DNA of 64,000 nt from a virus. The notes under the pieces are model-generated. The model was not told the origin of the DNA. It ran no database searches and saw only the letters and a list, made by a program, of their open reading frames with translations. Positions 46,098 to 57,322 of the stretch are shown here, one piece after another. The stretch's first letter is position 1. The number at the start of each line of letters is the position of its first letter. Position numbers and translations under genes: made by a program. The stretch lies in the IMG/VR virus record IMGVR_UViG_3300005471_000011, positions 32,001 to 96,000 of that record; one strand, 5' to 3'.

Positions 46098-48740
46098 TTA
46101 GCGAGGCTTGCGATTTTTAGCCACTGCTTTTGGCGGCGGCATTTGTCGCTTCTGGATCTTTGGCAAGGAGCGTTTTCTTGTCTTAGCTGTTGCTTGCGGC
46201 GCTGACTCGGCCAACGGCGATGACCGCTTTGCCAGAACCTCCACGGGAATGTCGCTTTCGCTCACGCCTCCCATCGGCAACATTCTGGCGATTCCAGCGG
46301 TTAGCTCGCCAAGTTCTTCGATTGCGCTAACTTGCTGTCGCTTTAGCTCCCTAGCACGATCAAGAAGCGCAACAACCGTTTTCATCTGTGATTTTGTCTT
46401 CGGCAGAGCGACAACCATTTCAAGGAATCGTTTTTCTTTATAGCGATTGCGGCTTGTCTTCGTCGATCCGGTCGAAATTCGGTCCACTTCGTCAAGGTAT
46501 TGCGGGCTGTTTAAGCAATGAACGACATACGACGACACCAACTCAGGTTCATCAACGTCCCCGCGCACGATGAAGGTTGGGAACTCGCCGGAAACATGAC
46601 AGCCATCGTGCTCCGGCGGGACTACGGCGAATGAGCCACGGAAGGCAAACAGGCGATTGTAAATGACGCTGCCCGCGGAAACTTGATTCAGCTTGCTACC
46701 CTTAATCAACCGCCCTGACTTCTCCTCTCGGACGAAGGTGCCCAGCCCCCACCACTTTACCCCCAATACGCGATAGTGACGCTCCCGGTCAATCTTCTCC
46801 ATGTGTTTAGTCTGAATGAACAATTCAGATAGCGCAACTGGCTGAGTTTCGAGGCCAGAGAATGCTATGCGAATATCAGCCAACGCTGATTTCAGGGCCG
46901 TGGTTATCAGAGAAAGATGCCCCTCGACAGCGGCTACGTTGGTTGCAATTTCAGCATCGGTTGGCGGAACGACTGGCAGTCGCTTTCGGTAATACTCCGC
47001 ATCCATGCGATCTTCGAGCGTGGCAACCCAGCTTTGCGGGTGCGCTTGACTCTTCTTTCCGCGCGAGAATGCCCTGTAGTCAAGTAGAACCTCTGGAAGT
47101 TGATTGCCGGCCACGGGAGCACCATTCGGCGCGTAGCCGCTGTTTTCAACCACCGCCATGAATGTTTCGCCCTGCGCCCCAGTCTCATCGACTTCGGGCT
47201 TCTTTTCCAAAAACAGAATGCTCGTCTTGGACCTCGCGTTGTAGCCTTCAAACGTAACCGCTGGCAAACTGACTATCCCCTTAATCCAGGCGTGCTGCTT
47301 GATGTAGTCGCGAACCTTAACCTTGCTGTCGTTGTTCAAAATGCCGTCGATTACGACAATGGCAACTGAGCCACCCGGCTTCACCAATCGCAAGCTACGC
47401 TCGACAGCTAGGATTACTCGATCTTGTTTGTGCTTTCTCCTGAGTTCATACCGACTCAAGATCGCGACATCGCTCTCGTATGACCCGAACGGTGGATTAG
47501 TGATGCAGAGATCGAATGTCCCCTCTTGGATTTTCCCCGGCACGTCCACTAAGCCATGATGCTTAACAATCCCAGCGCTGCCGTCCCCGTGGACGATCAT
47601 GTTCATTTTGCAAGCCAGTGTCGTCCGCTCTTTCCAATCGGTTCCAAAAATGCAGCGATTTGATAGCTCGATTTTCCACTTCGATTTTTCATCCTCGCTG
47701 AACTCCTGAAGCCTGATTTTCTCGCTGACGACCTCAAAGGCATAGATTAGGAATCCGCCTGTCCCGCAAAATGGGTCGATGATCTTTTGGCCGATCTTCG
47801 GGTCAATCGCGTCCACCATGAACTCGACTACATTACGCGGCGTGAAAAACTCTCCTAAGCCGCCAGTGAATGTGTCCCCAAGAAAATACTCGAACGCTTC
47901 GCCCTTCACGTCGAACGCCGTCAGTGATAGGTCGTAGCCTTCAAACTGGCTTACGATGGTGCGAATTGTTCGATCATCTAGGGCGATATTGCTGTCAGGA
48001 TCGAAGAGGTCGGAGAATTGCGGGTCTTCCTTGGTTTCTTGCCAAATCTGCTTGACGACGTTGACGCCCAGCTTCGCGAGCGTGTCATCGAATACCTTTG
48101 TCCGAAACCGATTGGCGTCCCCCGGATGCGTTCGCTCTTCGTGCATTTTGCAGAAGAGCACCTTCGACATTTCGTCAAATGCCTTGGTGGGGTCATCGCC
48201 TTGGTTATTCCGTATCTCGTTGTGGCAGGCGCGCAAGATCGACTTGAACGACTGCACGTCGTCGATGATGAAGAGTTCGTGTTTCGCCTCCAGCCGTAGC
48301 GATTCCTGCACTTCGGCGCTGACGACGAACTTTACAAAATCATCTGAGAGATCTCGCCTGTGCGGTAGATCTGCAAGCCGGTTTTTGCTAAGCGACTGAT
48401 ACACCCGCGTCTGGAGGCCGTTGGTAACGACCACTAGCGGCGCGATTCGCGGCAGCAGCCTTGCGTAAGAAATCGCCTGCTCAGTATCCCGGCGAATTAA
48501 CGGTTCCCCTGGAGGCTTGGTTTCGCAAACGATTAGCGGCGTGGTCTTGGCGGTCGTCGTATAGACCACCGCATCGGCAAAAATCGTCTTTGTTTTGCGC
48601 CCCTCTTGGATCTCGATTGGCTTGTTAAAATCAATACAGTTCTGCTTGTATCCACGCAACCCCAGATAGGGAACAAGGAACTTGACCTTCACGTCCTCCT
48701 CGGACAAAAGATCATCGGGGGCCGGCAGAGAATAGGACAT
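46098..48740 (-). CDS. Fused restriction-modification protein: HsdR_N-like nuclease, N6 methyltransferase and specificity (TRD) domain
   Basis: SEEDVKVK, AD..VY...IVCETK, QAISYA; GEFFTPR, DPFCGTGGFL, TNPPFG; C-terminal HsdS-like region; likely ATG at 48740. Confidence 0.85.
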   Translation of the reverse strand: MSYSLPAPDDLLSEEDVKVKFLVPYLGLRGYKQNCIDFNKPIEIQEGRKTKTIFADAVVYTTTAKTTPLIVCETKPPGEPLIRRDTEQAISYARLLPRIAPLVVVTNGLQTRVYQSLSKNRLADLPHRRDLSDDFVKFVVSAEVQESLRLEAKHELFIIDDVQSFKSILRACHNEIRNNQGDDPTKAFDEMSKVLFCKMHEERTHPGDANRFRTKVFDDTLAKLGVNVVKQIWQETKEDPQFSDLFDPDSNIALDDRTIRTIVSQFEGYDLSLTAFDVKGEAFEYFLGDTFTGGLGEFFTPRNVVEFMVDAIDPKIGQKIIDPFCGTGGFLIYAFEVVSEKIRLQEFSEDEKSKWKIELSNRCIFGTDWKERTTLACKMNMIVHGDGSAGIVKHHGLVDVPGKIQEGTFDLCITNPPFGSYESDVAILSRYELRRKHKQDRVILAVERSLRLVKPGGSVAIVVIDGILNNDSKVKVRDYIKQHAWIKGIVSLPAVTFEGYNARSKTSILFLEKKPEVDETGAQGETFMAVVENSGYAPNGAPVAGNQLPEVLLDYRAFSRGKKSQAHPQSWVATLEDRMDAEYYRKRLPVVPPTDAEIATNVAAVEGHLSLITTALKSALADIRIAFSGLETQPVALSELFIQTKHMEKIDRERHYRVLGVKWWGLGTFVREEKSGRLIKGSKLNQVSAGSVIYNRLFAFRGSFAVVPPEHDGCHVSGEFPTFIVRGDVDEPELVSSYVVHCLNSPQYLDEVDRISTGSTKTSRNRYKEKRFLEMVVALPKTKSQMKTVVALLDRARELKRQQVSAIEELGELTAGIARMLPMGGVSESDIPVEVLAKRSSPLAESAPQATAKTRKRSLPKIQKRQMPPPKAVAKNRKPR

Positions 48741-48952
48741 TATGCCCTCTTTGTCCCGGTAGGTTTCTTCGGCTTGTCCCAATAGGGGCTTTTGCAGTGC
48801 GGGCACACTCGCGGATGTTCGTCCGGTTTCCGCGGAACCCATTCGTGAGAACATCGCTCACAACGATACCCCGGCACGGTGAGTTTGATTTTCGCCATAG
48901 CCGGTATCTTACCAGATAATCAGTTATTTCAAAGGCAAATACTAGCCGGGGA

Positions 48953-48981
48953 TTGACGAATACTTACTTAGATAGTATATT
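48953..48981 (+). promoter_or_regulatory. Promoter of the transposase
   Basis: TTGACG, 17 bp, TATATT. Confidence 0.6.
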
Positions 48982-49020
48982 ACTACGAAAGTAAGACACA
49001 GACTGACTGGAGTTACTGCC

Positions 49021-50028
49021 ATGAACGACCGCGAGCAACGTGGGTTGACAATCGCCGCACTGACGAAGTTGGTCCGCAAGGGCGGTATTTGGGTTGTGCC
49101 TTCACAATCTGGACCAGCGAAATATACCGTTTGCCCAGATCCGATCAATCCCCACTGCACGTGCGCGGACCACGAAACCCGCGGCTGTAAGTGTAAACAC
49201 ATTTTCGCCGTCGAATTCGCGATGAAGCGCGAAGAGGCGGCAGACGGCACGGTGACGGAAACGCGGTCGATTACCCTGACTGAGAAGCGGACGACCTACA
49301 CTCAGGATTGGCCCGCGTACAATGCCGCCCAAACCACTGAGAAGGGCACGTTCCAGGTAATGCTCCGCGACTTGTGCAATGGAATACAGGAACCGCAGCA
49401 GGGGATGGGACGCCCTCGCATCCTGCTCCGAGATGCCCTCTTCGCAGCTTGCTTCAAGGTCTATTCCACGTTCTCAGGCCGGCGGTTTATGACCGACCTG
49501 AAAGAGGCGCACGGGGAAGGCCACCTAACCCGCTGCCCGTCGTACAATTCGATCTTCGCTGTTTTTGAATCGCCAGAGACCGATGGCGTACAGCTTCCCA
49601 AGCTGCTCGGAACGACGGCCCAGCGATTCACGGTCAAGGAGGTTTCTGCCGACTTAGCTTACTCGACTAACACGAACCTAGCGGAAGTGGACGCGCTCGG
49701 CGCGTCGCCAATGATCCCATTCAAGCGGAACGCGGTCGCCACATCCGGCGGCTTGTGGTCCAAGATGTTTCACTACTTTCAATTTCACCGCCAAGAATTT
49801 CTGAGCCGCTATCACCTGCGGTCGAATGTCGAGAGCACATTCTCTATGATCAAGAGGAAGTTCGGCGATTCGCTGCGGAGCAAGACTGACGTAGCGATGA
49901 AGAATGAAACGCTGGCCAAGCTGGTTTGCCACAACATTTGCTGCGTCATTCAGGAAATGCACGAATCGGGCGTCGATCCGACTTTCTGGGCAGATTCGGC
50001 AGTTGCCCAGAAAGGAGCCAACAACTAG
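49021..50028 (+). CDS. DDE transposase with N-terminal SWIM Zn finger, apparently internally deleted
   Basis: CTC.D...CKCKH (SWIM); VSADLAY and YHLRSNVESTFSMIK; first catalytic Asp region not seen. Confidence 0.8.
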   Translation: MNDREQRGLTIAALTKLVRKGGIWVVPSQSGPAKYTVCPDPINPHCTCADHETRGCKCKHIFAVEFAMKREEAADGTVTETRSITLTEKRTTYTQDWPAYNAAQTTEKGTFQVMLRDLCNGIQEPQQGMGRPRILLRDALFAACFKVYSTFSGRRFMTDLKEAHGEGHLTRCPSYNSIFAVFESPETDGVQLPKLLGTTAQRFTVKEVSADLAYSTNTNLAEVDALGASPMIPFKRNAVATSGGLWSKMFHYFQFHRQEFLSRYHLRSNVESTFSMIKRKFGDSLRSKTDVAMKNETLAKLVCHNICCVIQEMHESGVDPTFWADSAVAQKGANN

Positions 50029-51899: not shown

Positions 51900-52087
51900 T
51901 CAAGGACGTGCTGACTCCCAAGGATGTTGCGAAGCTGACTGGCTTCAGCCAGAGCACCATCAAGAAATGGATGGATCGTGGCTTGCTTAAGGGCTGGCGC
52001 ATTCCCGGCTCGAACCACCGACGGTTCGACCGCGAGACCGTGCTGGCGTTCCTGCGCAGCAACGGGATTCCGGAACCTGCGCCATGA
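51896..52087 (+). CDS. Excisionase-like HTH_17 DNA-binding protein
   Basis: VLTPKDVAKLTGFSQSTIKKWMDRGLLKGWRIPGSNHRRF. Confidence 0.8.
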   Translation: MIKDVLTPKDVAKLTGFSQSTIKKWMDRGLLKGWRIPGSNHRRFDRETVLAFLRSNGIPEPAP

Positions 52088-52596
52088 TCCGCCTGGGGTT
52101 CACCCGCTACGAGTTGCCGGAGCTGATCGACCTGCAAGGCTACAAGCGCGCCGTCGAGGTCGGAATCAACCTTGGCCAGTTCAGCTATCATCTGCTCAAG
52201 TACTCCAAGCTGGAGCTGCTTGTCAGCGTGGACAGTTACCCAGGCAAGTACCGCAAGGCGATGCCGAGCGCCAAAAACTATTTGGCGCCGTTCGGGGCGC
52301 GGTCGCAGTTGTTGCGGCGATCCAGCGTGGACGCGGCAGCGACCGTCGCTAACGGATTCTTTGACTTCGTGTATATTGACGCGGCGCACGACTATGCCAG
52401 CGTTCATGCTGACATTGAGGCATGGGCGAGGACGGTTCGTCCGGGTGGGCTGCTCGCTGGCCACGACTACACGCCGGCGCACGCGGGCGTGATGCAGGCG
52501 GTGGACGAGTTCACGTCCAATTCAAACTGGACGCTTTTTTCGACGCGCGAGCTGTGGGCGAGTTGGATGTTCTTTGTGCCGGAGTCGGCTAGTTGA
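52084..52596 (+). CDS. Class I SAM methyltransferase (Methyltransf_24-like)
   Basis: VEVG...G.FS, FDFVYIDAAHDY, VRPGGLLAGHDY. Confidence 0.85.
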   Translation: MIRLGFTRYELPELIDLQGYKRAVEVGINLGQFSYHLLKYSKLELLVSVDSYPGKYRKAMPSAKNYLAPFGARSQLLRRSSVDAAATVANGFFDFVYIDAAHDYASVHADIEAWARTVRPGGLLAGHDYTPAHAGVMQAVDEFTSNSNWTLFSTRELWASWMFFVPESAS

Positions 52597-52621
52597 CACG
52601 GCACGCAGCACTATGTAAAAT
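52593..52621 (+). promoter_or_regulatory. Sigma70-type promoter driving the RAMP/array module
   Basis: TTGACA, 17 bp, TAAAAT. Confidence 0.75.
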
Positions 52622-52630
52622 GCCAGCCGT

Positions 52631-52716
52631 GGCTACCAACCATCTCGCAAACATACGCGCCCTCTGCGCGAGGTTTTCTCTTGGTTGGTAGCCTGGGTTA
52701 GCCCGCGCAGGGGGCG
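52631..52716 (+). promoter_or_regulatory. Structured 5' leader (stem plus pseudoknot or alternative pairing)
   Basis: GGCTACCAACCA (52631-52642) pairs with TGGTTGGTAGCC (52682-52693); loop 52658-52670 pairs with 52704-52716. Confidence 0.55.
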
Positions 52717-52762
52717 TTCCTTCTGCGGGGCATGGCAACTGTTTTTCGAGGAGCCTCAGGTT

Positions 52763-53554
52763 ATGACGACTGCAACTGTTGGAAAGAATCGGTTGAACGG
52801 AGACACGGCGCTTGATGGCGACATCCAGGTCGCCGAGGATCAGGCGCGAGCCAACGCCAAGGAGAAGGGCAAGAAAGAGACGATCCAGGTCAAGCCGCTG
52901 CGGCTCAAGGTGCTTGAGGTCATCATCATCGGCACCGCGCCGCTGCTCCAGTTGCGTTTCTCCGCCAAGGCAATCGCCAAGATGCGGGCGACGCAGGAAG
53001 CCGGGGGGCAGGCCAAGTCCAAGAAGAACCGCGAGGCACGGGACTTCCACGCGGATTACCTGGGTGCCTTTCATCTGTTCGCTGACGGCACTCCCGGATT
53101 CCCGGCATCGGCGATCCGCGCGGCGTGCATCAGCGCGTGCCGCACGTGCAATTTCAAGATGACGCTGGCGAAGCTTTCCATTTTCACGCTGGCGGACGGC
53201 TTGGACATCGTGGACGGCATCCCGCTGGTCAAGGTGTTCGGCACGCCGGAGGAGACAGTAATGCCTGTTCGAAATCAAACTGGCGTTACGGATTTGCGGG
53301 CGCGTCCGATGTTCAAAGCCTGGAAGGCAAAAGTTCGAATCCGCTTCGATGAAGACCAGTTTTCTGCGCAAGATGCGTACAACCTTCTCTGCCGCGCCGG
53401 CGCTCAGGTCGGTATCGGAGAAGGACGGCCGGACTCACGCGAGTCGGCCGGCATGGGGCTGGGCACTTTCCGCGTGATCCTGCCGGACGATGAAGCGAGC
53501 GACGAGGAGGCGTTGCAGATTCCTTGGAAGGCGAAGGCGGTGGTTGAAGCCTAG
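52763..53554 (+). CDS. RAMP / Cas7-like (RRM-fold) protein
   Basis: GAGGAG RBS. First strand VIIIGTAPLL, then GFPASAIRAA, RARPMF..W...VRIRF and a C-terminal Gly-rich loop AG.QVGIGEGRP....GMGLGTFRV, the same order of motifs as in RAMPs. Confidence 0.65.
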   Translation: MTTATVGKNRLNGDTALDGDIQVAEDQARANAKEKGKKETIQVKPLRLKVLEVIIIGTAPLLQLRFSAKAIAKMRATQEAGGQAKSKKNREARDFHADYLGAFHLFADGTPGFPASAIRAACISACRTCNFKMTLAKLSIFTLADGLDIVDGIPLVKVFGTPEETVMPVRNQTGVTDLRARPMFKAWKAKVRIRFDEDQFSAQDAYNLLCRAGAQVGIGEGRPDSRESAGMGLGTFRVILPDDEASDEEALQIPWKAKAVVEA

Positions 53555-54470
53555 GCTCGTTTGTCGCGGATAGTTTAGGAGTGCCTTGTCCCGCATTGTT
53601 CGGGCGAGGCAGGCATGGTAAGTCGCGGCATGCCTAGTCGCTGTTTGGCAGGCATGTCCCGACGTGTTAGGGCAAGCTGCGGCACCGCGGGCTGTGTCAC
53701 GGCGCGGCAGGCATGTCCCGTTGGTCCGCTTCGGTCGGTATGGCACGGAGAGGTACGGCAGGCTTGACTAGTCCCGGAATGGTCGGTCGGTCATGGCAGG
53801 CATTACCCGTCACGCTTCGGTATGGCAAGACGCGGCAGGCAAGATTCGTCTCGGCAGGATTCGTCTCGGTTGGTTCTGGAATGGCATGTCAAGGTCTGGC
53901 AGGCCCGTCGGGTCTGGCCGTTGCTGGGCACGGTTTGCACGCGGTATGGCAGGCATGGCTGAGCGAGTCCCGTTGTGTTCCGGTCCGGCAGGAGCGGAAG
54001 GTTTCGGCGGGGTGTGGTAGGTCTCGGCAGGCTAGTATTGGAGCGTTTCGGATTGGTGAGGCACGGTTTCGCAGGCGAGCCAAGGCATGTCAGGTCCGGA
54101 CGATGAGCGGCTCGGCAGGCATGGAACGGCAAGTTGAGTTTGGACTAGTCGCGGTTCGGCAGGCGTGGAGCGTTCGGTTCGACATGTTAGGGTGCGGATC
54201 GTATGGTCCGCTACGGCAGGCACGTCGGGTCAGGACTGTGCGGAGCGAGTTCGGGCACGGTCAGACGCGGCAGGCCAGCCATCGCATGGCGCGTTTGGTC
54301 CTTGCAAGGCTATGCAGGTCCCGGCAGGCAGCGCGGGTCATGGTAAGGCAAGGCATGGTTCGTCGTCGCAGGCGAGGTTCGTCAAGTCCCGGTGGTAAGC
54401 GATTCGTCGCGGAGAGGTTTGGCAGGCGTGTCACGGAGAGTTCAGCAGTGGGTTTGTCAAGGCAGGCACG
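53555..54470 (+). repeat. Noncoding array 1: about 19 GGCAGGC-anchored units built of G-N-Y-N-N pentamers
   Basis: Anchors at 53608, 53647, 53706, 53757, 53795, 53834, 53898, 53948, 53987, 54026, 54070, 54114, 54158, 54215, 54269, 54323, 54367, 54421, 54461; 13 of 18 spacings equal 4+5n. Confidence 0.85.
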
Positions 54471-54503
54471 GTTTTATTTCTTTCACAATCAGGAGATCGT
54501 TTT

Positions 54504-55007
54504 ATGGTGACCGAGATCAATGATGCAGTACGCAATGAAATGCTGGCGCTGCTCGATGACGACGGGCTGCTCAAGCCTGAAGCCGTCGTTGCGGCGGCAG
54601 CCAATGAAGCCAGCAGCATGCACAAGTTCTTCACTTGGGACGATGCTAAGGCAGCCGCCAAGTGCCGGCTGGAAGAGGCGCGTGCTCTGATCCGCAACGT
54701 CGAATGCCAGTACGATGAAAACTGGCTCAAGGGTCCGGTCCCGGCGTTCGTCAGCTTGGCGAATGATCGTGGACGCGAGGGCGGCGGCTATCGCTCCACG
54801 CCAGCGGTGCTGACCAACAATCAGCTTCGCGCGGAGCTGATCGCTACCGCCAAGAAGGAACTGGAGTCCTGGGCGCGACGGCACAAGGTGCTTCGCGGCT
54901 ATGTGCTCAACGTGCTGGTCGCCAGCGGGATTGAGCCGACTGGCATTTTTTCAGAGTCCGAGATTGGCTTGACAGTTACAGGAGGAGGCGATCAGGAAGC
55001 GGCATAG
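54504..55007 (+). CDS. Accessory protein between the two arrays
   Basis: AGGAG RBS; GLLKPEAVVAAA...SSMHKFFTWDD..AA..CRLEEARALIR, GGGYR. Confidence 0.75.
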   Translation: MVTEINDAVRNEMLALLDDDGLLKPEAVVAAAANEASSMHKFFTWDDAKAAAKCRLEEARALIRNVECQYDENWLKGPVPAFVSLANDRGREGGGYRSTPAVLTNNQLRAELIATAKKELESWARRHKVLRGYVLNVLVASGIEPTGIFSESEIGLTVTGGGDQEAA

Positions 55008-55988
55008 CAGGTTAGGCACGGATCGTTATGACTGGCCCCGACTAGGTTTGTCATGCGCGGCTTGGCAGGCGAGATTTGCCCTGTTCAGGATCGTCGTGTC
55101 GCGGCGGCGCAGGCAGCGAGGGTCTGGTCGATGCTCGGCAAGGTCCGTCACGGCAGGCCGGGCTAGGCAAGTCTGATTCTGACACGGCAGTTCCCGGCAG
55201 TCGCGGTTAGTCTTGCTGCGACCAGTTAGGGCAAGGCAGGCACGGCCCGTGCCTGGATCGTGCCATAACGAACCGCGTCGGAACACGAACCGCGGCAGGC
55301 CAGACTGGTCAGGGGACGGCTCGAAAGGCACGGCACGATCCGTCATGGTGTGGCAGGCACGGCTAGTCAGGACTGCGCACGATCCGTTTTGGTCCGGCAG
55401 GCGCGACGCGACGTGATCTGTCTGGGAACGTCGTGACGAGGTCTGGCAGGTACGTCTGGTTGGGGCGCGATCCGTCATGGTATGGCGCGGCAGGCTAGGC
55501 ACGGCAGGACGCGGCAGGGCGCGACGCGGATGATCCCGGCAGGCAAGGTGTGTCGAGGCGAGGTTGATCGCGGTAAGATCGTGGCAGGCGAGGCATGTCC
55601 GGTCAGCGACTGGCATGCTGAGGCGGGTCGCGGCAGGGCGGCTTGGCAGGCGTGTTTTGGTCAGCCTCGGTGTGGCTTGCTTTGGCAGGCGCGGTTAGAC
55701 TGGTTTCGTCGCGACTAGGCACGGCAGGCACGTCTTGACTAGGCTGGGAGCTGTAGGTCGCGTTTTGGCTGGGCAGGCAGGTCTCTGCATGGTCCGGACG
55801 GAAAGGCTCGGCTCGGCAGGCACGCAATGTCACGGCACTGCGAGGTCAGCTATGGCGCGGAAGGGCAGGCATGTCACGAACCGTCAGCGCCCGGTTTGGC
55901 GAGTCGGGTCGCGGCAGGTTAGTCCAGTCAAGGACAGGTCAGGCATGCTTCGGTTCGGCAGGCAAGGCGTGGCATGAAAGTCCTGCCG
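55006..55988 (+). repeat. Noncoding array 2: about 21 GGCAGGC-anchored pentamer units
   Basis: Anchors at 55006, 55064, 55108, 55152, 55196, 55235, 55294, 55352, 55396, 55445, 55489, 55538, 55583, 55645, 55684, 55723, 55772, 55815, 55864, 55913, 55957; 15 of 20 spacings equal 4+5n. Confidence 0.85.
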
Positions 55989-56001
55989 ATGAAAGGAAAT
56001 C

Positions 56002-56847
56002 ATGAACTGGAAATCTCCGCCGGCAGACCAGTCTAAAGTCTGGCTGAACAAGTCTTTAGAAATTCAGATATTACTCGCGTGCAACTGGTCGTGTGTTAGT
56101 TGCGATCAGTTCAGCCAGTTCTCTAAGTTCGCCTGGGTCAAGAAGGGCACGATGAGTTTGGAGCAGATCGCGCACTTCTGCGCCGAGATGCGCGCCGGCA
56201 ATTTCTACTTCGGTCGGATTCGGCTGGTCGGAGGTGAGCCGACGATCCATCCTCGCTTCGGAGAGATCGTCGGCATGCTTCGCGAGGAGTTGATCGACAA
56301 CGGCCACGTAGCGGTCCTGGAGGTTGTCACCAACGGTTCGCACCCGGAGAAGATCAAGCCGGTGGCGCACCTGATCAACCGCGTGCGCGTCAGTGATGAT
56401 AACGACAAGCAAAAACATCACACGGCGAACCTGATTGCCACGCCGGCATCACTTGGCTACCAAGGAAAGCGGTGCAACCAGCCGGAGCATTGCGGCTGGT
56501 CTTTGAGCTATTATGGGTTTGCGCCTTGCAGCTCTGCCGGTGGAATCATGCGGCTGCGCGACCTGATGTCAGAGCACCAGCGAACCAGCCTTCCGCAGGT
56601 CAAAGGCACCGAGGCCAACTGGCCGAAGTTGCAGAATCTTTGCGACCAGTGCTACCATGCATTGCGTAGCGAGGACAAAATCAAGTCCGGCACGTCGGAC
56701 CCATCCAGGAACATGCCCAGCGAAGAAGCTGCAGTCCACGTCAACAAGTGGGCGGGCGGTCACAAGCCCGACTGGAAAATCTACGGGCAGGAAGCCAATG
56801 AAAATCCCGCTCATGGCGACGCGCTACGACCTGCCGGCGCTGTTTGA
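56002..56847 (+). CDS. Radical SAM protein
   Basis: CNWSCVSC, GGEPTIHP, VTNG, C-terminal Cys cluster (C..C, PC, CDQC). Confidence 0.85.
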   Translation: MNWKSPPADQSKVWLNKSLEIQILLACNWSCVSCDQFSQFSKFAWVKKGTMSLEQIAHFCAEMRAGNFYFGRIRLVGGEPTIHPRFGEIVGMLREELIDNGHVAVLEVVTNGSHPEKIKPVAHLINRVRVSDDNDKQKHHTANLIATPASLGYQGKRCNQPEHCGWSLSYYGFAPCSSAGGIMRLRDLMSEHQRTSLPQVKGTEANWPKLQNLCDQCYHALRSEDKIKSGTSDPSRNMPSEEAAVHVNKWAGGHKPDWKIYGQEANENPAHGDALRPAGAV

Positions 56848-57322
56848 CGCGCTGAAGTACCGGGTCGGCGCGGAGATTGGCGTTGACCACGGCTATTTCT
56901 CACGGCACCTGCTGGCATCGTCCAGGCTAGATCGTCTGTACTCCGTGGATTCCTGGCAGGGTAAGTTCGGCAAGTGCATCGCGGACGCCAAGCATTACCT
57001 CGCGGAGTTCGGGCATCGGTCGGAGATCATCCACCGCAGCGCGTCCCAGGCAGCGGCATCGCTGTCCGACAACAACGTGCGGCTGGACTTCGCGTATATT
57101 GACGCTTCCCATCGGGAGCAATCGGTAGCATTGGACATGCAGGACTGGGCACCGTTGGTCAAGCCGGGCGGGTGCCTGTGCGGGCATGACTACTGCGACC
57201 AGCCTATGACTGGGGTAATCCAGGCGGTGGACGGATTCGCGGCGGAGCGTGGGTTGCCGGTGTTCGTCACTTCCGAGCCGTGGGCGTCATGGCTAATCTT
57301 TATGCCGGAGCAAGCAGCATGA
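56798..57322 (+). CDS. Class I SAM methyltransferase, close paralog of 52084-52596
   Basis: TRYDLP, AEIGV..GYFS, LDFAYIDASH, VKPGGCLCGHDY, WASW. Confidence 0.85.
   Translation: MKIPLMATRYDLPALFDALKYRVGAEIGVDHGYFSRHLLASSRLDRLYSVDSWQGKFGKCIADAKHYLAEFGHRSEIIHRSASQAAASLSDNNVRLDFAYIDASHREQSVALDMQDWAPLVKPGGCLCGHDYCDQPMTGVIQAVDGFAAERGLPVFVTSEPWASWLIFMPEQAA

What the first reader, a model, noticed from the sequence alone, without database searches (positions are those of the whole stretch)
52593..55988. Candidate RNA-guided system: stand-alone RAMP/Cas7-like gene with two non-CRISPR pentamer arrays
Seen: a consensus promoter, a structured leader, a 263-aa gene, a noncoding array of about 0.9 kb, a 167-aa gene and a second array of about 1 kb, all on one strand. 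The module sits between two paralogous methyltransferases. About 40 units are anchored by GGCAGGC and the unit interiors I read are all different. Established: the protein's motif order (GxxPL first strand, PASAIR helix, C-terminal Gly-rich loop) is that of RAMP proteins such as Cas7 and Csm3, which polymerise along guide RNA in fixed steps. No cas1, cas2, cas3 or cas10 is in the window. Inference: the arrays are processed into ~40-60 nt RNAs, each pentamer binds one subunit, and the variable positions encode a gapped target, e.g. to repress competing phages or host genes. I recall a recent report of phage RAMP proteins with GGY/NN-type RNAs (named VIPR). I cannot verify it here, so this may be a divergent member of that family rather than wholly new.
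Basis: partly seen in the sequence, partly recalled or inferred. Interest (0 to 1): 0.96.

Follow-up and report, generated by a model that had tools for sequence, protein, structure and literature searches.

The report
Phage VIPR locus, staggered guide arrays
A 104-kb soil phage carries a real example of VIPR, a CRISPR-related RNA-guided DNA silencer published in 2026, with about 43 guide units; two of them spell conserved motifs of other phages' VIPR gene and DNA-methylase gene.

Summary
The kind of system is already published: VIPR, bioRxiv 10.64898/2026.04.26.720920 and two companion preprints. This scan has also noted it in at least 125 other genomes.

- **Protein.** Gene 52763-53554 encodes a stand-alone RAMP. 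Its only sequence match among solved structures is the SUSP1 Vipr protein, and its model matches Csm3, Cmr and Cas7-11.
- **Arrays.** Two roughly 0.95-kb arrays consist of G-[G/T]-Y-N-N pentamers. About 43 [G/C]GCA|GGC junctions interrupt them with a 4-nt step, so unit length is 4+5n. This is the paper's "staggered, 1-nt overlapping" architecture.
- **Relatives.** 79 of 80 viral relatives have such arrays beside the gene.
- **Accessory gene.** The 167-aa gene is conserved downstream of vipr and is weakly winged-helix-like.
- **Guide 53651-53710.** Under the published 1-nt-skip rule it spells, in codon phase, the vipr motif MPVRNATGV. It matches a rival's vipr at 21/24 and the phage's own at 18/24.
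- **Guide 54273-54327.** It spells G-LYFSQAIIW of ParB-fused N6/N4 DNA methylases. The 9-dinucleotide core has 42 exact IMG/VR hits. The 10-dinucleotide guide matches 20/20 in 27 of them, against 15/20 in the phage's own homologue.

No target was found for the other guides, and no RNA data exist. Verdict: a new member of a known kind.

The parts
52593..52621 (+). Sigma-70-type promoter TTGACA-N17-(TG)TAAAAT of the module
   Evidence: It matches 11 of 12 consensus positions. The same extended form occurs 4 times in the 104-kb genome, always on the + strand. This is a consensus match only; transcription is not shown.
52625..52762 (+). Structured 5' leader before vipr: a 12-bp outer stem followed by a second hairpin
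   Evidence: MFE -66.8 kcal/mol, z = -4.5. No Rfam family matches. It has no pentamer period and no blastn match in 199 related loci. Its role is unknown.
52763..53554 (+). vipr: stand-alone RAMP protein, 263 aa. It has an RRM core, a helical insert at about 68-101, a long beta-hairpin thumb at 159-196, and the G-loop QVGIGEGRPDSRESAGMGLG at 215-234.
   Evidence: Sequence against PDB chains gives one hit, SUSP1 Vipr 36pp_D: E 0.0026 for the single protein and 1.6e-6 for the family profile. AF2 model pLDDT is 80.5. Foldseek's top hit is Csm3 at E 3e-6, and VIA gives Z 9.4-8 to Cmr, Csm3 and gRAMP. It matches phrog_4652. 5187 homologue clusters exist.
53261..53296 (+). The phage's own vipr codons MPVRNQTGVTDL, homologous to the site spelled by guide 53651
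   Evidence: The guide matches the phage's own site at 18/24, with mismatches in codons 4 and 6. It matches the vipr of L164 at 21/24.
53555..54503 (+). vrRNA array 1: 20 anchors and about 180 pentamers
53651..53710 (+). Guide unit of 12 pentamers. Its NN string is AT CC GT AG AA GC AC GG GT AC GC AG, which reads M P V R N A T G V T in codon phase: an anti-vipr guide.
   Evidence: In most related loci the best site is the homologous vipr codon, in phase 0. The match to the vipr of L164 is 18/18 over the first nine dinucleotides and 21/24 overall. Across the clade, hits of at least 17/18 number 11 with a 1-nt skip, against 1, 0 and 0 with skips of 0, 2 and 3.
54273..54327 (+). Guide unit of 11 pentamers. 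Its NN string is CA AT AT GC TG CT AA TA AG CC AG, the antisense image of the codons G-LYFSQAIIW of ParB_N + N6_N4_Mtase genes.
   Evidence: There are 42 exact IMG/VR hits to the 18 specified bases. 41 of them lie on that motif in codon phase. Pfam families were confirmed on all 6 ORFs tested. The match is 20/20 in 27 loci, where shuffled guides reach at most 17. The phage's own homologue matches at 15/20.
54504..55007 (+). Candidate vap (vipr accessory protein), 167 aa: an N-terminal domain that is weakly winged-helix-like, then a long C-terminal helix
   Evidence: A homologue lies downstream of vipr on the same strand in 113 of 160 related loci. It matches phrog_15946. AF2 pLDDT is 87. Fold matches are weak: Z 4-6.4 to winged-helix proteins and Foldseek E > 0.2.
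55008..56001 (+). vrRNA array 2: 23 anchors. It runs up to the ribosome-binding site of the next gene with no terminator.

Best explanation
This is a VIPR (Viral Interference Programmable Repeat) system on a tailed phage from rhizosphere soil.

A strong promoter drives an operon of vipr, array 1, a vap-like gene and array 2. The array transcripts consist of pentamers G-[G/T]-Y-N-N.

By homology with the solved SUSP1 complex, one Vipr protomer binds each pentamer and holds the first three bases. It presents the NN pair, so that the NN pairs together read double-stranded DNA as NN-x-NN-x, skipping one target base. Binding then blocks transcription.

The arrays are of the 'staggered' kind. Every 7-11 pentamers a 4-nt step, [G/C]GCA|GGC, shifts the register by one base and marks the end of one guide and the start of the next. 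This gives about 43 guides and no separate tail.

**Shown here**
- The RAMP fold and the sequence link to SUSP1 Vipr.
- The array grammar and its conservation beside homologues.
- The conserved accessory gene and the phage context.
- Two guides that, under the 1-nt-skip rule and no other, spell conserved protein motifs of other phages' genes in codon phase (vipr itself, and a ParB-fused DNA methylase). Each matches the phage's own homologue at only 75%.

**Inferred**
- Transcription and processing of the arrays.
- Filament assembly, DNA binding and silencing.
- The aim: disarming rival phages' VIPR, and stopping their protective DNA methylation.
For: **Membership**
- The only PDB sequence hit is SUSP1 Vipr, over the thumb base and G-loop. 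Thumb R138 aligns to R181 and G-loop R179 to R222, both invariant in the family.
- The fold is RAMP.
- The record has no Cas1, Cas2 or Pfam RAMPs match.
- The record is a phage: portal, tape measure, DnaB.

**Arrays**
- Period 5 and 4+5n units.
- 79 of 80 IMG/VR relatives have period-5 arrays next to the gene.
- In 95 relatives the anchored logo is G92/G88/C86/N/N, and anchor spacing is 4 mod 5 in 622 of 752 cases. This fits the paper's fig. S18 legend.

**Code**
- The anti-vipr guide.
- The anti-methylase guide, with 42 exact hits where five other 18- or 20-base patterns gave 0.
- No self-target above noise in the phage's own genome.
- The two decoded guides lie in opposite sense relative to their target genes, which fits DNA targets rather than mRNA targets.
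Against: - No RNA data exist for this phage. Expression, unit boundaries and RNP formation are therefore untested.
- The preprint says staggered arrays were not among the architectures confirmed by small-RNA sequencing.
- The sequence link to SUSP1 Vipr covers only 47 residues.
- Position 2 of the pentamer is relaxed here (G 50%), unlike in most relatives (88%).
- Only 2 of about 43 guides have an identified target.
- The best anti-vipr match is 21/24, not perfect, and the phage's own gene scores 18/24, a small margin.
- The winged-helix reading of the accessory protein is weak.
Confidence: 0.88

Rival explanations
1. The guide at 53651 is not aimed at rivals. It is either a feedback guide that partially represses the phage's own vipr, or simply a copy derived from a vipr gene.
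For: It matches the phage's own vipr at 18/24 at the homologous site in phase 0. The best foreign match found is only 21/24. No exact target exists in IMG/VR or in the GTDB genomes.
Against: - The phage's own site falls below the preprint's 80% criterion, while five foreign vipr genes pass it.
- The mismatches to the phage's own gene are internal (codons 4 and 6), whereas the match to L164 is an unbroken 18/18.
- The same self-below-non-self pattern is reported for SUSP1-family anti-vipr guides.
- It recurs for the methylase guide: 15/20 for the phage's own gene against 20/20.
Confidence: 0.12
2. The array RNAs guide the protein to RNA (mRNA) rather than to DNA, as in type III CRISPR, whose Csm3 is the nearest fold.
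For: The top structural matches are the RNA-targeting Csm3, Cmr4 and Cas7-11. The methylase guide is antisense to the mRNA.
Against: - The anti-vipr guide has the same sense as the vipr mRNA and cannot pair with it.
- For SUSP1 the preprints show dsDNA binding, and silencing when either strand is targeted.
- They also show incomplete assembly on ssRNA.
- No nuclease or Cas10-like partner was seen among the locus proteins examined.
Confidence: 0.04
3. The arrays are a non-functional pentanucleotide satellite, or they are translated (ORFs 53713-54510 on the + strand and 55026-55616 on the - strand).
For: Long ORFs do run through both arrays.
Against: - The arrays show no 3-base periodicity: lag 3 is -0.17.
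- The array ORFs have one marginal tblastn hit in 199 related loci.
- The arrays are strand-specific and lie beside the gene in 79 of 80 relatives.
- The NN positions are variable while G and Y are kept.
- Two units decode to conserved genes.
Confidence: 0.01

Closest known systems
VIPR systems with 'staggered' vrRNA arrays (bioRxiv 10.64898/2026.04.26.720920, text and fig. S18 legend)
   Same: A stand-alone Vipr RAMP with an accessory gene and GGY/NN-type pentamer arrays on a phage. Units follow each other with a 1-nt overlap, which here appears as the 4-nt step GGCA|GGC. There is no CRISPR array and no Cas1 or Cas2 match. Guides follow the 1-nt-skip rule and hit other mobile elements, including other VIPR systems.
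   Different: - There are two large arrays with about 43 units.
- Pentamer position 2 is relaxed to G/T in this subclade.
- One array lies between vipr and the accessory gene.
- One guide reads a ParB-fused DNA methylase, a target not mentioned in the main text of the two preprints searched for it.
- The paper's type number (I-VII) could not be assigned, because the figures and data tables are not held.
Type II VIPR of Escherichia phage SUSP1 and the Pseudomonas fulva prophage (same preprint; cryo-EM in 10.64898/2026.04.26.720927; PDB 36pp)
   Same: Thumb base and G-loop are homologous (E 1.6e-6). The aligned positions of R138 and R179 are conserved. Both have a two-gene operon with flanking arrays and follow the 1-nt-skip code. 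Anti-vipr guides with a lower self-match are also reported there (10.64898/2026.10.15.759431).
   Different: - SUSP1 vrRNAs are about 100 nt, with 9-16 repeats and an invariant pseudoknot tail. Here the units are 39-59 nt and have no tail.
- W178, which stacks on G2 in SUSP1, aligns to an invariant Gly here.
- The protein is 263 aa against 202 aa, with an N-terminal extension of low model confidence (residues 1-18).
Class 1 CRISPR backbone RAMPs (Csm3, Cmr4, Cas7, Cas7-11)
   Same: The fold is shared: RRM, thumb and G-loop. Foldseek gives E 3e-6 and VIA gives Z up to 9.4. Both polymerise on a guide at a fixed step.
   Different: There are no cas partners and no repeat-spacer array. The period is 5 nt with 2 read bases, instead of 6 nt with 5 read bases. 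The Pfam RAMPs model does not match.

Membership tests
VIPR | Vipr protein: a stand-alone RAMP (RRM core, thumb, G-loop) related to known Vipr proteins | tested here: met
   The family profile hits SUSP1 Vipr 36pp_D at E 1.6e-6, the only meaningful PDB hit. The model matches Csm3 and Cmr at Z 8-9.4. The model shows a long beta-hairpin and a Gly-rich loop.
VIPR | Adjacent non-coding tandem pentamers with a conserved GGY (or related) triplet and a hypervariable NN | tested here: met
   The anchored logo is G84 / G50 T29 / Y88 / N / N over 155 pentamers. Relatives give G92/G88/C86/N/N. Lag-5 autocorrelation is 0.34-0.39. Position 2 is relaxed here; the paper allows 'a related consensus'.
VIPR | Minimal locus: vipr plus one accessory gene (vap), with no cas genes and no CRISPR array | tested here: met
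   The 167-aa gene is conserved downstream of vipr in 113 of 160 loci. The record has no Cas1, Cas2 or Pfam RAMPs match; cas3 and cas10 were not searched for. Which of vap1-6 it is could not be tested.
VIPR | Guides match natural targets under the 1-nt-skip (NNx) rule, with no self-targets | tested here: met
   This holds for two guides. Controls with skips of 0, 2 and 3 and with shuffled guides were negative. No self-target rises above noise. The other guides remain undecoded.
VIPR | Mostly viral or proviral location | tested here: met
   The record has portal, tape-measure and DnaB genes. At least 548 IMG/VR contigs hold a relative.
VIPR | vrRNAs are expressed, processed and co-purify with Vipr; the RNP binds dsDNA and silences transcription | not testable with these tools
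   No RNA run holds the stretch. Only contigs of two DNA metagenomes were available.
VIPR type II (SUSP1-like) | Each vrRNA ends in an invariant structured 3' tail (pseudoknot) | tested here: not met
   Units abut directly at GGCA|GGC with 4+5n spacing and no conserved tail. The locus is therefore not filed as type II.
CRISPR-Cas | Repeat-spacer array and adaptation/effector cas genes | tested here: not met
   No Cas1 or Cas2 is present. The arrays have a 5-nt period and variable-length units, not repeat-spacer structure.

The most novel reading that the evidence does not exclude
Beyond being one more VIPR locus, this phage may use broad-spectrum guides written against near-invariant protein motifs of rivals, while its own paralogues are recoded to escape at 75% match.

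One guide would shut off rival phages' ParB-fused DNA methylase. The rival DNA would then be left unmethylated and open to restriction, either by the host or by the IS-borne methylase-specificity gene this phage carries 4 kb upstream. That would be a division of labour between RNA-guided silencing and restriction, which is not described in the VIPR preprints.
Probability: 0.3. Interest if true: 0.65.

Novelty: new member of a known kind. Interest (0 to 1): 0.5.

Why it matters
VIPR was described only in 2026, and its 'staggered' arrays were not among the architectures confirmed by RNA sequencing.

- **A model locus.** This one is large and clean, with about 43 units, quantised lengths and a conserved junction. 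It could be used to work out how such arrays are cut into guides.
- **The code in a distant clade.** The two decoded guides give independent computational support that the 1-nt-skip code also holds in this clade, which is very abundant (more than 5000 protein clusters).
- **A possible new target class.** The guides point to rival phages' protective DNA methylases, alongside the already reported anti-VIPR guides.

Tried and rejected
**Target scans that found nothing**
- Exact-pattern scans for guides 53651 (20 bases), 55400, 55868, 54371 and 53563 in IMG/VR gave 0 hits each.
- Guide 53651 in the GTDB genome contigs gave 0 hits.
- Guide 53902 (16 bases) gave 9 IMG/VR hits with mixed peptides, in line with chance for that many bases. 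Its JAMM-like reading 'VHTHPG' is not supported.
- Guide 54219 in 401 Pseudomonadota genomes, with up to 2 mismatches, gave 1 hit against 12 for the reversed control.
- No other window guide hits the 42 methylase contigs or the other fetched loci above shuffled controls.

**Ideas tested and dropped**
- The idea was that relaxed pentamer position 2 follows from W178 of SUSP1 aligning to Gly, or from the W184F change. The Gly is invariant in relatives that keep G2 at 88%, and W/F does not track G2.

**Host**
- The transposase has no match in plasmids.
- Isolated phages give only distant hits: Cyanophage Cy-LDV1 at 54%, mycobacteriophages at 30%.
- The host remains unknown.

**Other blanks**
- No RNA holder is listed for the stretch.
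- Rfam has no match in 52300-56300.
- PADLOC (2023) has no model for either protein.
- The accessory protein has no sequence hit to solved structures.
The metagenome scan returned only relatives of 59% identity or less.
- The VIPR type number could not be assigned, because no figures or supplements are held.


Full report
**What is there.** The region contains, all on the + strand:
- a near-consensus promoter at 52593-52621 (11 of 12);
- a strongly folded leader (z = -4.5);
- a 263-aa gene (52763-53554);
- a 949-nt non-coding array;
- a 167-aa gene (54504-55007);
- a 994-nt array that runs up to the next gene.

GGCAGGC occurs 32 times in the arrays and 15 times in the remaining 62 kb. Its complement never occurs in the arrays. 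With the anchor [G/C]GCAGG there are 43 anchors. 29 of the 41 spacings are 4 mod 5, and no two interiors are identical. G autocorrelation peaks at lag 5 (0.34 and 0.39) and is negative at lag 3, whereas the two genes show the opposite. These are the only two period-5 stretches in the whole 104,107-bp record.

Fixing the frame by the anchors alone gives the pentamer logo G 84% / G 50%, T 29% / pyrimidine 88% / N / N. Each unit is therefore GGCA followed by 7-11 pentamers. Put another way, the last pentamer, GGCAG, shares its final G with the first pentamer of the next unit.

**The class is published.** A literature search found three 2026 preprints on VIPR, Viral Interference Programmable Repeat. 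According to them:
- VIPR consists of a stand-alone ancestral RAMP (Vipr), an accessory gene (vap) and vrRNAs of alternating GGY/NN.
- One protomer binds each repeat, and the NN pairs read dsDNA with one skipped base between them.
- Binding silences transcription.
- Targets are rival mobile elements, including other VIPR systems.
- There are seven types, and architectures include 'staggered arrays with overlapping vrRNAs', in which vrRNAs derive from 1-nt overlapping positions.
- The hammerhead-interspersed and single-vrRNA architectures were confirmed by small-RNA sequencing. Staggered arrays were not among those confirmed.

**The protein.**
- Pfam gives nothing.
- Against all PDB chain sequences the only hit is 'SUSP1 Vipr protein' 36pp_D, at E 0.0026 for the single sequence.
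- A profile of 40 homologues raises this to E 1.6e-6. The match covers the thumb base and the G-loop.
- In that alignment SUSP1 R138 (thumb, contacts G2) corresponds to R181, and R179 (contacts Y3) to R222. Both are invariant in the family. D177 corresponds to E220 and W178 to an invariant Gly.
- The AlphaFold model (pLDDT 80.5) matches only CRISPR RAMPs at the top of both fold searches. Csm3 scores Foldseek E 3e-6; Cmr, Csm3 and Cas7-11 score Z 9.4-8.
- The family is very large: 5187 clusters at E <= 0.001 and at least 548 IMG/VR contigs. It is PHROG 4652, of unknown function.
- It occurs in MAGs of many phyla and in Bradyrhizobium, Roseococcus and Rhodanobacteraceae isolates.

**Context.** The record is a tailed phage, with portal, tape measure and DnaB helicase. 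It is 83% complete by CheckV and comes from a rhizosphere metagenome. Identical low-depth fragments occur in a second rhizosphere study. It has no match to Cas1, Cas2 or the Pfam RAMPs model.

**Relatives.**
- 79 of 80 IMG/VR loci with a homologue have a period-5 G array directly beside it. The exception ends about 100 nt after the gene.
- In 95 relatives with at least three anchored units the logo is the canonical G92/G88/C86/N/N.
- Anchor spacings are 4 mod 5 in 622 of 752 cases, so the staggered junction is a property of the clade.
- The relaxed position 2 is shared by a few loci (L017, and L004-L006 and L008, which are among the closest IMG/VR relatives). It does not track the thumb W/F residue.

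**The accessory gene.** A homologue of the 167-aa protein lies downstream of vipr, on the same strand, in 113 of 160 loci. It is PHROG 15946. Its model (pLDDT 87) has an N-terminal domain that resembles winged-helix proteins only weakly: Z 4-6.4 and Foldseek E > 0.2. A long helix follows. This agrees with the preprint's 'winged-helix-like' Vap examples but does not prove the point.

**Do the guides mean anything?** I segmented the arrays into units, took positions 4-5 of each pentamer, and searched with 0-3 skipped bases.
- Nothing in the phage's own genome exceeds shuffled guides, as the preprint reports for its systems.
- Unit 53651-53710 stood out. In most related loci its best site is the same codon-phased site in vipr, the conserved motif M-[P/A]-V-R-N-A-T-G-V.
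- With more loci, the vipr gene of L164 (a deltaproteobacterial MAG contig) matches the first nine dinucleotides 18/18 and the whole guide 21/24. The phage's own vipr matches 18/24, with internal mismatches. By the preprint's 80% criterion, five foreign vipr genes are targets and the phage's own gene is not.
- Across the clade I scored 1401 guide units against 200 vipr genes. Hits of at least 17/18 numbered 11 with a 1-nt skip, against 1, 0 and 0 with skips of 0, 2 and 3. Some of the 11 are duplicate loci; about 7 are distinct.

**A second decoded guide.** Exact-pattern scans of IMG/VR gave 0 hits for five guides. The nine-dinucleotide core of unit 54273-54327 gave 42 hits. A 16-base pattern gave only 9 hits, so well under one hit is expected by chance at 18 bases.
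- 41 of the 42 hits lie antisense and in codon phase on the motif (G)LYFSQAIIW of 360-790-aa ORFs.
- All six ORFs tested carry N6_N4_Mtase, and five of them also carry ParB_N.
- The tenth dinucleotide also matches in 27 loci, giving 20/20 where shuffles reach at most 17. The constant terminal AG does not match.
- The target loci fetched show no vipr and no nucleotide similarity to this phage.
- The phage's own ParB-like methylase, 28% identical, has AGLKVRHVLIWVK at this site and matches only 15/20.
- Methylases are not mentioned in the main text of the two preprints searched for the term.

The two decoded guides lie in opposite orientations relative to their target genes. That fits DNA recognition rather than mRNA recognition.

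**Mechanism, and what is inferred.** The following were shown here: family membership of the protein, the array grammar, synteny, the phage context, the validity of the code for two guides, and a self-match below the non-self match. The following are inferred from the SUSP1 work: one protomer per pentamer, filament formation, dsDNA binding and transcriptional silencing. My own inferences are:
- the 4-nt step breaks the filament register and so delimits guides;
- the terminal GGCAG is a boundary element rather than a reading pentamer;
- silencing a rival's methylase would expose it to restriction.

**Verdict.** This is a genuine and well-formed VIPR locus of the staggered-array kind: a new member of a known kind. 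This scan has already noted VIPR-like loci in at least 125 other genomes. The added value here is a large model array for the unconfirmed staggered architecture, independent support for the 1-nt-skip code in a distant and very abundant clade, and a candidate new target class.

Noticed in passing
55255-55284: Inside a 59-nt unit of array 2 the + strand loses the G phase. The reverse complement reads six clean pentamers: GTTCC GACGC GGTTC GTTAT GGCAC GATCC. This is an inverted segment. GGCAC GATCC also occurs in direct orientation in neighbouring units, so the segment could pair with them.
   Followed up: partly
53838-53867: A 15-nt internal duplication, GGCA[A/G] GATTC GTCTC, sits in array 1. 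It suggests that the array grows by local duplication.
   Followed up: no
56002-56847: A radical-SAM gene starts right after array 2 with no terminator between them. It has a weak PADLOC match to prokaryotic viperins (pVip, E 1e-9) and a Pfam Radical_SAM match at 4.8e-10. It may be co-transcribed with the VIPR module.
   Followed up: partly
46098-50028: A 918-aa methylase + specificity fusion lies on the - strand (PADLOC MTase_I 1e-82, Specificity_I 1e-16), next to a DDE_Tnp_1 transposase (49021-50028). I checked only the domains.
   Followed up: partly
genome 7846, 13470, 24262, 84593 (the last is window 52593): The extended promoter TTGACA-N17-TGTAAAAT occurs four times in the phage genome, always on the + strand. 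The VIPR operon shares this promoter form with three other sites.
   Followed up: no
genome 27436-28533 (outside the window): The phage's own ParB-like N6/N4 DNA methylase is 28% identical to the targeted family. Its motif is recoded (KVRHVL instead of YFSQAI) exactly where guide 54273 reads.
   Followed up: yes
L206:4096-6423, L233:5934-8150: Some targeted methylases are about 740-780 aa long, and their N6_N4_Mtase match is split in two. L206 has a weak Hint (intein-like) match in the insertion.
   Followed up: no
52084-52596 and 56657-57322: The two flanking Methyltransf_24 genes are 48% identical paralogues. The second ORF overlaps the radical-SAM ORF by about 190 nt as listed, so its true start is probably further downstream.
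   Followed up: partly
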